Part shown: in pieces, positions 39,028-40,553 of the stretch
How positions within the stretch are numbered: the first letter of the stretch is position 1
Layout of the letters: each line of letters opens with the position of its first letter
Assembly (NCBI GenBank): GCA_030680745.1
Contig: JAUXUR010000077.1
Span: forward strand, 4,197-68,196
DNA length: 64,000 nucleotides
Reading direction: 5' to 3'
Source: Alphaproteobacteria bacterium
GTDB taxonomy: Bacteria > Pseudomonadota > Alphaproteobacteria > JAUXUR01
Made by a program: the position numbers and the translations under genes
The notes under the pieces: generated by a model
The model's database searches: none
The model's input: the letters and a program-made list of their open reading frames with translations, nothing else
Told to the model about the DNA's origin: nothing

Positions 39028-39507
39028 GTGCGTTTCATTCTTATCTCAAGTATTTTAAGTTTTTTTGCTACAAATTCAATTGCATTAGACCTAACAAAAG
39101 AAATTGAAGTACTAAGAACAAAAGCAGCCTCAGGACAAAACATTCAGACTGATATAGCATCATTGGCAGATGAAATTAAAAAAAATTCTCAATCTCTTGT
39201 TGTTACGCATAAAGTTGATTTTTCTATTGTTGGTAATGATGGCAATGTAAGTCTTTTTTTGCCTGGTAAGCCTAATTCAACTGTTATATCTAATAGTACT
39301 GAACATCAAACAAAAGCAATCGATGCAATAAATAGACATCCGCAAGCAAAAATAGCTCAAAATCCTGATGGTGCAACTACCTTAGGTGGTACTTCTAATG
39401 ATGGTGGTTTTGGCCATCTCATTACAAGCATTTTAGGTGCTGTTACTTCTATAGGCGGTGATGCTTTATCAGGTGTAGTTAGTGGTGTTGTTGGAGCAAT
39501 ATTTTAA
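39028..39507 (+). CDS. Secreted protein with C-terminal glycine-zipper hydrophobic tail, paralog 1
   Basis: RBS ggagga, GTG start. Signal peptide. C-terminus GGFGHLITSILGAVTSIGGDALSGVVSGVVGAIF. Confidence 0.45.
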   Translation: MRFILISSILSFFATNSIALDLTKEIEVLRTKAASGQNIQTDIASLADEIKKNSQSLVVTHKVDFSIVGNDGNVSLFLPGKPNSTVISNSTEHQTKAIDAINRHPQAKIAQNPDGATTLGGTSNDGGFGHLITSILGAVTSIGGDALSGVVSGVVGAIF

Positions 39508-39612
39508 TTCTGTGGTTCTTTATTGAGTGCCAGAAAAGTTTTTACCCTTAAAAAGAACAAATTGAGTTTATGCGTACACATTCAGAAAAAATAAAAAAGA
39601 GGTCAAAAAAAA

Positions 39613-40041
39613 ATGAAAAGAACATCCTTGTTGGTAATATCTTTGGTACTAGGCTTTAACTTTTTTGTTCAAGCGGAATCACTTCCCGGTGAAAAGTTCA
39701 CACTCATCGAAACAACGGTGAATTTTACAAACGTTGATAAAGACGGAAAAATTACAAGGGAGCGAAAAGTAACAGGTAAGAAAATTATTCCACATAATAA
39801 ACCTGGTGAATCTGTTGATAAAAAGGAAATCGTAAGGCTCGCTAATATTGCTAAGCAAGAACAAATAGCAAAAAGAAATCCCTCTGACACTGAAACACTT
39901 GGTCTTTTTGATGAGGTTGCAGATTTCATTGATCATGCGAAAAAAGGTGTAGGCGGTCTTGTAAACAGTGGTGTAGGTTTTGTTACGGGACTTATTGCTG
40001 ATGAGGCTGTTGGTGTTGTCGCAGGTATTCTTGTGCCATAA
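39613..40041 (+). CDS. Secreted protein with C-terminal glycine-zipper hydrophobic tail, paralog 2
   Basis: Signal peptide. C-terminus KGVGGLVNSGVGFVTGLIADEAVGVVAGILVP. Confidence 0.45.
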   Translation: MKRTSLLVISLVLGFNFFVQAESLPGEKFTLIETTVNFTNVDKDGKITRERKVTGKKIIPHNKPGESVDKKEIVRLANIAKQEQIAKRNPSDTETLGLFDEVADFIDHAKKGVGGLVNSGVGFVTGLIADEAVGVVAGILVP

Positions 40042-40049
40042 ACAATAAG

Positions 40050-40553
40050 GTGAACATGATGTTAAAAAAAATATATGTATTTTTAGTTATAGCTTTTATA
40101 ACATATCCAATTGCGTATGCACTTGAAAATTCTAGCGTAAAATTGGATCAAGTACACCCAGGAGCAGCCACTAGTCAAGAAGAAGGTCGAAAAGCCGTTA
40201 TTGTCACCAGAACAACGATTAACGTCGTTGAGCTTACGCCAACAGATGACAATAAGTCTTTTGTAATTAAGGAAATACATAAAATCGTTGAGCCTGGCAT
40301 TATAAAAGATCCAAGTGTTAAAATTGATGATGATAAATTGAAGGTTATGCTTAAGAAAGCCTTTGATGATCATGATCTAAAACAAGGTGATGCAGTTACA
40401 CTTGGTGTGGGTGCAGATTTAGGTGATCTTGTAGGTACGGGCGCTGGACTTGTAGAGCCGGTCGTAAAAGTTGCCACTTTTGTTATACCAAAAATCGCGG
40501 GTGCTGCCGACGTTGTTATTGGATTGGCCAAAAACCTTCTTGCTTTTTTGTAA
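40050..40553 (+). CDS. Secreted protein with C-terminal glycine-zipper hydrophobic tail, paralog 3
   Basis: Signal peptide. C-terminus LGVGADLGDLVGTGAGLVEPVVKVATFVIPKIAGAADVVIGLAKNLLAFL. Confidence 0.45.
   Translation: MNMMLKKIYVFLVIAFITYPIAYALENSSVKLDQVHPGAATSQEEGRKAVIVTRTTINVVELTPTDDNKSFVIKEIHKIVEPGIIKDPSVKIDDDKLKVMLKKAFDDHDLKQGDAVTLGVGADLGDLVGTGAGLVEPVVKVATFVIPKIAGAADVVIGLAKNLLAFL

What the first reader, a model, noticed from the sequence alone, without database searches (positions are those of the whole stretch)
39028..40553. Three tandem paralogous secreted proteins ending in glycine-zipper hydrophobic tails
Adjacent genes of 159, 142 and 167 aa, separated by 106 and 9 bp, each have a signal peptide and a polar middle. 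Each also has a C-terminal 30-45-aa segment rich in small-xxx-small motifs (GAVTSIGGDALSGVVSGVVGAIF; GVGFVTGLIADEAVGVVAGILVP; GLVEPVVKVATFVIPKIAGAADVVIGLAKNLLAFL). Such tails are characteristic of membrane-inserting or pore-forming peptides (bacteriocin-like, VacA-like glycine zippers) or of C-terminal membrane anchors. Together with the adjacent curlin-like trio and the long AT-rich spacers, this forms a 3.5-kb secreted-protein island.
Basis: partly seen in the sequence, partly recalled or inferred. Interest (0 to 1): 0.65.

Follow-up and report, generated by a model that had tools for sequence, protein, structure and literature searches.

The report
Orphan trio of exported paralogous proteins
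Three adjacent genes in an uncultured alphaproteobacterium encode distantly related small exported proteins with conserved glycine-rich amphipathic tails; they form a rare, conserved three-gene cassette that matches no known protein family, and its function is still unknown.

Summary
The three genes are real: A 39028-39507, B 39613-40041, C 40059-40553. All are under purifying selection, tails included (tail dN/dS 0.08-0.17). The same A-B-C order occurs in seven metagenomic lineages, behind a conserved promoter block.

Paralogy holds only through B. Profile comparisons give A~B E about 1e-6 and B~C E about 1e-8. A~C is at noise level.

The shared architecture is a Sec-type signal peptide, a beta-hairpin with a DxDG turn, a helix, a near-invariant [T/S]-L-G junction, and a 35-50-aa Gly/Ala/Ser/Val-rich tail.

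The tails show alpha-helical amphipathic periodicity. They are too weakly hydrophobic for stop-transfer anchors (delta-G +2.7 to +6.6 kcal/mol). Small-xxx-small spacing exceeds the composition expectation only marginally, and only in C.

No member contains Cys or Trp, so there is no lipobox. There is no conserved immunity or exporter gene. Pfam, NCBIfam, PHROGs, PADLOC and PDB gave no hit, while a genuine glycine-zipper lipoprotein in the same window is detected.

The link to the curlin-like genes is specific to this clade.

My best guess (0.35) is an envelope-resident hetero-oligomer held together or bound to a membrane by the tail helices. A small tripartite pore-former is not excluded. Two AlphaFold runs gave low confidence.

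The parts
38935..38981 (+). Conserved promoter/operator block upstream of A. It contains GTCATTCATTACGAC (38935-38949), then a TTGCAA -35-like hexamer (38953-38958), a 17-nt spacer carrying an invariant TTTTATG, and a CACAAT -10-like hexamer preceded by TG (38976-38981).
   Evidence: The block, with the same fixed 29-nt spacing, lies upstream of the cassette in W, L004, L008, L009, L013 and L014, and slightly varied in L005 and L006, although synonymous sites are saturated between these lineages. It occurs once in the 64-kb window, with 0.02 expected by chance. Which sigma factor or regulator uses it was not determined.
39018..39022 (+). Shine-Dalgarno sequence GGAGG of gene A
   Evidence: Read from the sequence. 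GGAGGAAAA precedes the start codon in all orthologous loci.
39028..39507 (+). Gene A (159 aa). Parts: signal peptide aa 1-19; helix-GQN-helix with the conserved KAASGQN motif aa 22-56; beta-hairpin aa 57-80 with an (N/D)-D-G turn; T118-L119-G120 junction; variable Ser/Thr/Lys linker; tail aa 126-159 (nt 39403-39504) made of two amphipathic helices.
39613..40041 (+). Gene B (142 aa). Parts: signal peptide aa 1-21; beta-hairpin aa 29-60 with turn VDKDG; helix aa 70-87; T95-L96-G97 junction; tail aa 98-142 (nt 39904-40038) made of an acidic amphipathic helix followed by two Gly-rich helices, ending in LVP.
   Evidence: B is the link between A and C in the profile comparisons.
40059..40553 (+). 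Gene C (164 aa from ATG 40059; alternative starts at 40056 and 40050). Parts: signal peptide aa 1-21; beta-hairpin region aa 44-78; helix aa 88-106; T114-L115-G116 junction; tail aa 117-164 (nt 40407-40550) with the GxxxGxxxGxxxG run GADLGDLVGTGAG and two Pro-delimited helices.

Best explanation
A-B-C is an autonomous three-gene operon of anciently triplicated paralogues. It is transcribed from one conserved promoter.

Each product is exported by Sec and its signal peptide is cleaved. This step is inferred from sequence features.

Each mature protein, about 120-140 aa, has a small hydrophilic core (a long beta-hairpin plus a helix) joined at a conserved [T/S]-L-G hinge to a tail of two or three short amphipathic helices. 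One face of each helix is Ile/Leu/Val/Phe and the other is Gly/Ser/Thr/Ala.

I infer that the three proteins co-assemble in the cell envelope into a hetero-oligomer. The cores would associate by beta-sheet extension. The tail helices would pack against each other and probably bury their hydrophobic faces in a membrane leaflet after export, rather than acting as Sec stop-transfer anchors. In working principle this resembles SlyB/OsmB-type glycine-rich helical hairpins of the outer membrane.

A structural or stress-protective envelope role seems more likely than a toxin role.

Shown: the genes, selection, paralogy, operon and promoter conservation, helical periodicity, weak hydrophobicity, and absence of known anchors. 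Inferred: export, co-assembly, membrane association and role.
For: - The A-B-C order is conserved in seven distinct lineages (W/L002, L004, L005, L013, L006, L008, L009). B-C gaps are short (14-18 nt in six of the seven lineages) and the genomic neighbourhoods differ.
- Every paralogue has been retained since an old triplication, which suggests non-redundant subunits.
- All three proteins are under purifying selection, tails included.
- All tail segments have alpha-helical hydrophobic periodicity; P(100 deg) is far greater than P(170 deg).
- Hessa delta-G of +2.7 to +6.6 kcal/mol and the lack of a basic C-terminal flank argue that the tails pass through Sec.
- On the Eisenberg scale the 21-residue mean hydrophobicity is 0.56-0.70, which is borderline membrane-associating.
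- AlphaFold predicts a long hairpin plus helices with no compact monomer core (pLDDT 47-54). That would fit folding on assembly.
- P0018 carries two tandem core modules on one tail, so the core is a modular unit that can sit side by side.
- No conserved immunity or exporter gene is present, and the locus is not on a plasmid, phage or defence island.
- Local GC (0.32-0.34) is only slightly below the window average of about 0.35.
Against: - There is no direct evidence for localisation, assembly or membrane binding.
- The structure models are low confidence and no multimer prediction was possible.
- In L014 gene C stands alone behind the same promoter, without A or B, so C at least can persist by itself.
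- The complete absence of Trp and near-absence of Tyr is unusual for stably membrane-embedded envelope proteins. Absence of Cys is also typical of proteins exported out of the cell.
- The family is so rare (about a dozen sequences among 15 billion proteins) that a core envelope role is unlikely to be general.
Confidence: 0.35

Rival explanations
1. A, B and C form a miniature tripartite membrane-permeabilising toxin or effector. They would leave the cell and their amphipathic glycine-rich tails would co-insert into a target membrane, bacterial or host/phagosomal, to form a pore. This is a small analogue of the three-component alpha-pore-forming toxins, and it is the first reader's main reading.
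For: - Three paralogous exported proteins in one operon is the genetic layout of Hbl/Nhe/AhlABC-type toxins (own knowledge).
- The tails are amphipathic helices that are not hydrophobic enough to be trapped in the producer's inner membrane.
- C has a GxxxGxxxGxxxG run that is conserved in divergent orthologues.
- The proteins lack Cys.
- The genome looks host-associated: an ankyrin-repeat protein and many large orphan ORFs.
Against: - None of the nine contexts has a conserved immunity gene, dedicated exporter or delivery domain.
- Glycine-zipper ionophore toxins described in the literature come with small hydrophobic immunity proteins and are highly polymorphic (PMC11630599). Here the tails are the most conserved part (dN/dS 0.08-0.17).
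- No similarity to HBL/ClyA or any toxin family was found.
- The mature proteins are only 12-15 kDa.
- The locus is chromosomal and vertically syntenic within the clade.
Confidence: 0.15
2. The proteins are soluble periplasmic proteins, for example stress-protective or chaperone-like. Their tails would be only oligomerisation helices forming a helical bundle, with no membrane involvement.
For: - They carry a Sec signal but no anchor or sorting signal.
- The cores are hydrophilic and charged.
- Tail hydrophobicity is modest, and small-residue faces are typical of tight helix-helix packing.
- The promoter/operator block is strongly conserved, which suggests regulated expression.
Against: - Mean Kyte-Doolittle hydropathy of 1.2-1.45 over 30-45 residues with almost no charges is high for a soluble surface.
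- Eisenberg mean hydrophobicity of 0.56-0.70 falls in the membrane-associating range.
- No similarity to known periplasmic chaperones was found.
Confidence: 0.2
3. The proteins are self-assembling surface or extracellular components of a fibre or coat. They would be chaplin- or amyloid-like hydrophobic tails, or accessory factors for the adjacent curlin-like repeat proteins, analogous to CsgE/F/C.
For: - In this clade the trio is divergently adjacent to three or four secreted N/Q/G/S/T-rich repeat proteins.
- The composition is free of Cys and Trp.
- The Gly/Val/Ser-rich tails superficially resemble amyloid-forming segments (own knowledge).
Against: - The cassette occurs without any curlin-like gene nearby in L006, L008, L009, L013 and L014.
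- Tail periodicity is alpha-helical, not beta.
- No CsgE/F/G/C, Curlin_rpt or chaplin Pfam match was found for any of the 23 members or for the neighbouring genes.
Confidence: 0.1
4. The proteins are inner-membrane proteins facing the periplasm and held by a C-terminal transmembrane anchor (stop-transfer).
For: - The Kyte-Doolittle 19-residue maxima of 1.5-1.9 are borderline for a transmembrane segment.
- The hydrophobic segment sits at the extreme C-terminus.
Against: - Hessa delta-G is +2.7 to +6.6 kcal/mol for the best 19-mers in all 28 members.
- There are no basic residues after the tail, so there is no positive-inside signal; the proteins end in F, L, V, I or P.
- Helix-breaking GGD, ADE or Pro residues split the tail into 10-17-residue helices.
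Confidence: 0.05

Closest known systems
Glycine-zipper 2TM outer-membrane lipoproteins (SlyB/Pcp, Rickettsia 17-kDa antigen; Pfam PF05433)
   Same: They are small (about 155 aa) Sec-exported envelope proteins that combine a beta-rich domain with two short Gly-rich helices. They oligomerise and associate with a membrane leaflet (bioRxiv 10.64898/2026.06.08.730324; own knowledge). The working principle I propose is similar.
   Different: No homology: hhalign probability is 4% against E. coli SlyB and 1.3% against the window's own 17-kDa-antigen homologue. There is no PF05433 hit, while the genuine homologue at 63316-63813 scores 1.5e-6. The trio has no lipobox Cys. Its helical module is at the extreme C-terminus. 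It comes as three distinct paralogues in an operon.
Tripartite alpha-pore-forming toxins (Hbl, Nhe, AhlABC/SmhABC; ClyA superfamily)
   Same: They are three paralogous signal-peptide-bearing proteins encoded in tandem. Each has a hydrophobic membrane-inserting element and they act together (own knowledge).
   Different: Those proteins are 35-45 kDa elongated helical bundles and are recognised by Pfam HBL. The trio proteins are 12-15 kDa with a beta-hairpin core and have no sequence match. No lytic activity is known.
Glycine-zipper ionophore toxins (CdiA-CT ionophores, Tse4, T7SSb TspA-type)
   Same: They have Gly-zipper-containing amphipathic helices that dissipate membrane potential (PMC11630599).
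   Different: Those toxins are C-terminal domains of large delivery proteins or substrates of T6SS/T7SS. They are always paired with small two-helix immunity proteins and are highly polymorphic. The trio has Sec signals, no immunity gene, and conserved tails.
Alpha-helical outer-membrane insertions (Wza C-terminal helix barrel, VirB10 antenna)
   Same: In those proteins a C-terminal amphipathic helix or helical hairpin of a periplasmic protein oligomerises to cross the outer membrane (own knowledge). This is a possible way the tails could work.
   Different: Those are large proteins, lipoproteins or inner-membrane-anchored, within defined secretion or export machines. No such machine is linked to the trio and no homology was detected.
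Curli accessory proteins CsgE/CsgF/CsgC
   Same: They are small Sec-exported proteins encoded divergently from genes for amyloid-repeat subunits. That layout resembles this window.
   Different: No Pfam match was found for the trio or for the neighbouring repeat proteins. No CsgG-like channel is present. The juxtaposition is absent in five other lineages.

Membership tests
Glycine zipper 2TM lipoproteins (SlyB / 17-kDa antigen, PF05433) | Sequence match to the PF05433 / PF16998 profiles | tested here: not met
   No hit at E<=1 for the three window proteins or at E<=5 for any of 23 family members. Positive control: window 63316-63813 hits PF05433 at 1.5e-6 and PF16998 at 3.8e-12. hhalign of A4 against E. 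coli SlyB gives probability 4%, and against the window homologue 1.3%.
Glycine zipper 2TM lipoproteins (SlyB / 17-kDa antigen, PF05433) | Lipobox with an invariant Cys after the signal peptide | tested here: not met
   None of the 28 A, B and C members contains a Cys.
Glycine zipper 2TM lipoproteins (SlyB / 17-kDa antigen, PF05433) | Two short Gly-rich helices forming a membrane-embedded hairpin | tested here: inconclusive
   All tail segments show alpha-helical periodicity and AF2 predicts helices there, but with pLDDT of only 23-50. Membrane embedding cannot be tested with these tools.
Transmembrane glycine-zipper motif ((G/A/S)xxxGxxxG) | i/i+4 spacing of small residues beyond what composition gives | tested here: not met
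   Against 5000 shuffles per tail, A and B give p 0.4-0.96. Only GxxxG in C is marginal (p 0.03-0.06 in three divergent orthologues).
Transmembrane glycine-zipper motif ((G/A/S)xxxGxxxG) | The motif lies in a genuine transmembrane helix | tested here: inconclusive
   Hessa delta-G is +2.7 to +6.6 kcal/mol, not an autonomous transmembrane helix. Eisenberg mean hydrophobicity of 0.56-0.70 is borderline.
Tripartite alpha-pore-forming toxins (Hbl/Nhe/AhlABC) | Three paralogous exported components in one operon | tested here: met
   Paralogy is shown. The operon is conserved in seven lineages.
Tripartite alpha-pore-forming toxins (Hbl/Nhe/AhlABC) | ClyA-type elongated helical-bundle fold (35-45 kDa; Pfam HBL) | tested here: not met
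   No Pfam hit. The mature proteins are 120-143 aa with a predicted beta-hairpin core. No PDB sequence hit at E<=10.
Tripartite alpha-pore-forming toxins (Hbl/Nhe/AhlABC) | Cooperative pore formation or cytolysis | not testable with these tools
   This needs purified proteins and liposome or cell assays.
Bacteriocin / ionophore toxin-immunity modules | Adjacent cognate immunity gene (small hydrophobic protein) | tested here: not met
   No fourth gene is conserved across the contexts. The downstream genes differ: MFS transporters, an APH-like kinase, a transposase remnant, an unrelated 177-aa gene. The literature expectation is in PMC11630599.
Bacteriocin / ionophore toxin-immunity modules | Dedicated exporter or delivery domain (ABC/C39, CdiA, T6SS, T7SS) | tested here: not met
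   The proteins have Sec-type signal peptides. No such genes occur in the flanks of any locus. Whole genomes were not available.
Bacteriocin / ionophore toxin-immunity modules | Rapid diversification of the toxic module | tested here: not met
   Tail dN/dS is 0.08-0.17, equal to or lower than the core values.
Curli accessory proteins (CsgE/CsgF/CsgC/CsgG) | Profile match and obligatory linkage to curlin genes | tested here: not met
   No Pfam hits. The curlin-like neighbours are absent from L006, L008, L009, L013 and L014.
C-terminal sorting or anchor signals (LPXTG, PEP-CTERM, GlyGly-CTERM, stop-transfer TM) | Signature motif, then a hydrophobic helix, then a basic C-terminal cluster | tested here: not met
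   The proteins end directly in F, L, V, I or P with no basic residues. No NCBIfam sorting-domain hit. delta-G is positive.

The most novel reading that the evidence does not exclude
A, B and C could be a previously unknown kind of Sec-dependent tripartite alpha-helical membrane-inserting complex. It would be built from about 13-kDa subunits and would be either a minimal three-component pore-forming toxin or effector of a host-associated alphaproteobacterium, or an alpha-helical outer-membrane channel assembled from C-terminal amphipathic hairpins. It is unrelated in sequence to any known pore-former.
Probability: 0.15. Interest if true: 0.75.

Novelty: new variant of a known kind. Interest (0 to 1): 0.4.

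Why it matters
The trio defines a protein family that no database describes. The family has a clear modular architecture and an unusually well conserved promoter. All three paralogues have been kept together in seven of the eight lineages where the whole locus could be read.

If the tails do insert into membranes after export, the trio would be a compact, lipid-anchor-free, three-component example of envelope or target-membrane association by short glycine-rich amphipathic helices. That would be useful for understanding alpha-helical insertion into outer or host membranes.

If it is only a lineage-specific periplasmic complex, its importance is local to a poorly known group of probably host-associated Alphaproteobacteria.

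It is not evidence for a bacteriocin locus or for a curli-like secretion island.

Tried and rejected
- Family libraries. Pfam, NCBIfam, PHROGs and PADLOC scans of the window proteins, the L006 trio and all 23 aligned members gave nothing credible.
- Solved structures. A PDB profile search found no hit at E<=10.
- Homologue searches. Three word-index searches found only 5-6 relatives each. A full HMMER scan of 1.84 billion representatives found 6 hits. The GTDB species genomes contain only the same MAG. Metagenome and viral contig scans found nothing, and one alignment was too divergent to use. tblastn against plasmids and phages found nothing.
- Promoter motifs. I looked for EcfG, sigma-28, sigma-54, sigma-32 and RpoE-type motifs upstream of A and found none. 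The generic promoter/terminator scan was uninformative.
- ORF 38746-38958 on the minus strand as an immunity candidate. Rejected. It overlaps the conserved promoter, is frame-disrupted in the closest relative, and is reduced to ATG-AAT-GAC-TAA in L006.
- The DxDG turn as a calcium-binding DxDxDG loop. Rejected as unsupported. Only the D-G turn is shared among the families.
- Direct A~C homology. Not detectable.
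Full report
**Observation**

The plus strand carries three consecutive ORFs at the stated place.
- Gene A runs 39028-39507 (159 aa). Its GTG start lies 5 nt after a GGAGG (39018-39022), and orthologues have ATG at the same aligned position.
- Gene B runs 39613-40041 (142 aa).
- Gene C ends at 40553.
- The gaps are 105 nt and about 14-17 nt.

Each protein begins with a basic n-region, a hydrophobic stretch and a small-x-small site (SIA|LD, VQA|ES, AYA|LE). I could not run SignalP, so export is inferred from sequence.

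**The genes are real and the family is tiny**

The window comes from an uncultured Alphaproteobacteria MAG. P0001, P0007 and the neighbouring RluB-like pseudouridine synthase carry NCBI names of that kind, on an 81-kb contig. An Alph_Pro_TM protein is also present.

Each of A, B and C has only 5-6 relatives among 5.8 billion clustered proteins. A full HMMER scan of 1.84 billion representatives with the B profile found only six hits. Among the 185,579 GTDB species genomes only one MAG matches: isolate C8_concoct.bin.36, contig JAUYSY010000125.1, 97% identical in A to the window.

Comparison of the window with L004 and L005 gives the following dN/dS values:

| Region | dN/dS |
|---|---|
| Mature cores | 0.05-0.22 |
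| Tails | 0.08-0.17 |
| Signal peptides | 0.14-0.58 |

These are functional genes, and the tails are at least as constrained as the rest.

**A conserved cassette**

The same A-B-C order occurs in seven distinct lineages: W/L001 with L002/L003, L004, L005, L013, L006/L007, L008 and L009. The short contig L010 shows the end of A followed by B. The neighbouring genes differ between lineages:
- rluB and curlin-like genes upstream in the window clade;
- TrkH in L006 and L008;
- a rhodanese-family gene in L009.

The downstream genes also differ. The window has two MFS transporters, L004 and L005 have an APH-like kinase, L006 has transposase debris, and L013 has an unrelated secreted protein. No fourth gene is conserved, so there is no immunity or exporter candidate.

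One exception exists. In L014 gene C stands alone after the ATP-synthase b subunits.

**Conserved promoter**

Upstream of A there is a conserved block, GTCATTCAT-N3-GAC-TATTTGCA-N14-TTTTATG-N-CA-N-AAT. In the window it spans 38935-38981, with a TTGCAA -35-like hexamer, a 17-nt spacer, and TG followed by a CACAAT -10-like hexamer. The block has identical 29-nt spacing in W, L004, L008, L009, L013 and L014, and is slightly varied in L005 and L006. It is conserved even though synonymous sites between these lineages are saturated. It is also retained in front of the solitary C gene in L014.

The motif is unique in the 64-kb window, with 0.02 occurrences expected by chance. An alternative register (-35 around GAC, -10 TTTTAT) is equally possible, so the sigma factor and regulator are unknown. 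I found no EcfG, sigma-28, sigma-54, sigma-32 or RpoE-type motif.

**Paralogy**

Pairwise BLAST between the three proteins is marginal. With family alignments that include the distant orthologues, hhalign gives:

| Pair | Probability | E-value | Aligned region |
|---|---|---|---|
| A~B | 88-94% | 2.8e-6 / 1.9e-7 | 93 colinear columns, hairpin to tail |
| B~C | 92-95% | 2.2e-8 / 5.7e-7 | 49 columns: second strand, helix, TLG |

Real scores are 42-54. Forty column-shuffled controls per pair reached at most 17-21.

HMMER profiles also cross-hit: A to B at 6e-5, B to the L006 C at 9e-6, and C to the L006 B at 5e-5, among 1357 ORFs. A~C alone is at noise level. P0019 and P0021 are B-type proteins that end in the A-type '...AAIF'.

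The three are therefore ancient paralogues linked through B. There is no fourth paralogue in the window.

**Anatomy**

The merged alignment A4 and the AF2 secondary structure give a common plan:
1. a signal peptide;
2. in A only, an extra helix-GQN-helix with an invariant KAASGQN;
3. a long beta-hairpin with an Asp-Gly turn (VDKDG in B, (N/D)DG in A);
4. a helix;
5. a nearly invariant [T/S]-L-[G/S] junction (A T118-L119-G120, B T95-L96-G97, C T114-L115-G116);
6. the tail.

In A a low-complexity Ser/Thr/Lys linker of 0-25 residues separates the junction from the tail, which marks the tail as a tethered module. P0018 has two core modules and one tail.

None of the 28 proteins contains Cys or Trp, and Tyr is nearly absent.

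**What the tails are**

- Family-averaged hydrophobicity has its spectral peak at 90-105 degrees in every tail segment: two in A, three in B, three in C. P(100 deg) is 13-44 against P(170 deg) of 0.7-5.4. These are amphipathic alpha-helices of 10-21 residues, with one face Ile/Leu/Val/Phe and the other Gly/Ser/Thr/Ala.
- They are only moderately hydrophobic. The best 19-residue windows have summed Hessa delta-G of +2.7 to +6.6 kcal/mol in all members. The scale values are from memory and carry no position correction. The signal-peptide h-regions score about 0. On the Eisenberg scale, which treats Gly as more hydrophobic, the 21-residue means are 0.56-0.70, which is borderline.
- No basic residues follow the tails.
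- 'Small-xxx-small' pairs are present but follow from composition in A and B (p 0.4-0.96). Only the GxxxG run in C (GADLGDLVGTGAG, conserved in L006 and L009) is marginally enriched (p 0.03-0.06).

'Glycine-rich amphipathic helices' is therefore accurate. 'Glycine zipper' is justified, weakly, only for C.

**Comparison with known families**

Nothing matches, and there are no hits in plasmids or phages.

The window supplies an internal control. ORF 63316-63813 is a genuine lipobox-bearing 17-kDa-antigen/SlyB-type protein, which Pfam detects (PF05433 at 1.5e-6, PF16998 at 3.8e-12). The trio profile is unrelated to it (probability 1.3%) and to E. coli SlyB (probability 4%).

AF2 models of B are low confidence (pLDDT 47.5 and 54.2). 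Foldseek against PDB gives no hit below E 0.25. No fold assignment is possible.

**The 'island'**

The three minus-strand genes (37106-37456, 37474-37791, 38086-38448) do encode signal-peptide proteins with N/Q/G/S/T-rich repeats. They have no Curlin_rpt hit. They are found only in the window clade, with four copies in L004 and L005, and are absent around the cassette in L006, L008, L009, L013 and L014.

Local GC (0.29-0.34) lies at the low end of the range seen across the window. The juxtaposition is lineage-specific and gives no evidence of a functional unit.

**Mechanism**

I think the most likely reading (0.35) is this. A, B and C are exported by Sec and released into the periplasm, because the tails are too polar to stop transfer. 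They then co-assemble through their hairpin cores and tail helices into a hetero-oligomer. The oligomer would bury the hydrophobic helix faces in a bundle and/or in a membrane leaflet. This is functionally analogous to, but not homologous with, SlyB/OsmB-type Gly-rich helical hairpins.

Support:
- All three paralogues are retained in a fixed order behind one promoter.
- The tails are under purifying selection.
- The predicted monomer has no compact core.
- The core is modular, as the duplication in P0018 shows.
- Toxin hallmarks are absent.

Against:
- There are no localisation data.
- C occurs alone in L014.
- There are no interfacial aromatic residues.

Rivals:
- soluble periplasmic oligomer (0.2);
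- mini tripartite pore-former or effector (0.15), which fits the layout and the amphipathic tails but lacks immunity, an exporter and polymorphism (PMC11630599);
- surface fibre, coat or curli accessory (0.1), which the alpha periodicity and the non-conserved linkage contradict;
- inner-membrane C-terminal anchor (0.05).

**Novelty and interest**

By sequence this is an undescribed family confined to about a dozen metagenomic sequences. By architecture it is a lipid-anchor-free, C-terminal, three-paralogue variant of the general theme of small exported proteins with Gly-rich amphipathic helices.

Without a function I do not claim a categorically new system. Interest is moderate (0.4). It would rise sharply if multimer modelling or biochemistry showed a tripartite alpha-helical pore.

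Noticed in passing
window 38746-38958 (minus strand): A 70-aa ORF, called as a 65-aa gene in L001, overlaps the conserved promoter of gene A. Its ATG-AAT-GAC start is the reverse complement of the conserved GTCATTCAT motif. It is split across two frames in the closest relative (L002/L003) and is reduced to Met-Asn-Asp-stop in L006. It is probably a decaying or spurious ORF and not an immunity gene.
   Followed up: partly
window 37106-37456, 37474-37791, 38086-38448 (minus strand): Three signal-peptide proteins have N/Q/G/S/T-rich imperfect repeats that look curlin-like to the eye. They have no Pfam Curlin_rpt hit. The 120-aa gene is duplicated in L004 and L005. The genes occur only in the window clade and are not linked to the A-B-C cassette elsewhere.
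   Followed up: partly
window 5069-5196 and 6652-6779: A 128-nt direct repeat (90% identical), each copy containing a tRNA-Gln(TTG) gene, flanks a 1.58-kb segment that encodes a 440-aa orphan protein (5196-6518, minus strand) with no Pfam hit. It may be an insertion or duplication at a tRNA gene.
   Followed up: partly
window 63316-63813 (+), probable start at the MKKSII methionine: This is a genuine glycine-zipper 2TM / 17-kDa-antigen (SlyB-like) lipoprotein with lipobox LSAC. It hits PF05433 and PF16998. I used it as an internal positive control.
   Followed up: yes
window 41212-42420 and 42704-43912 (+): Two tandem paralogous 402-aa MFS transporters lie just downstream of the trio. They are present in W and L002 but are replaced by an APH/choline-kinase-like gene in L004 and L005, so the region downstream of the cassette is variable.
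   Followed up: partly
window 49056-49613 (-), 45926-48535 (-), 57985-61875 (-), 17320-18765 (-): An ankyrin-repeat protein and several large ORFs (481-1296 aa) with no Pfam domain occur in a genome of about 35% GC. This pattern suggests a host-associated (protist symbiont-like) lifestyle.
   Followed up: no
L009 8001-8681 (P0018): This B-family member has two tandem hairpin-helix core modules before a single tail. It shows that the core is a duplicable module.
   Followed up: partly
L014 1185-1944: A solitary, intact C-family gene sits about 230 nt downstream of the same conserved promoter block, with no A or B gene. It lies after the ATP-synthase b/b' genes. Either A and B were lost in this lineage or C functions independently.
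   Followed up: partly
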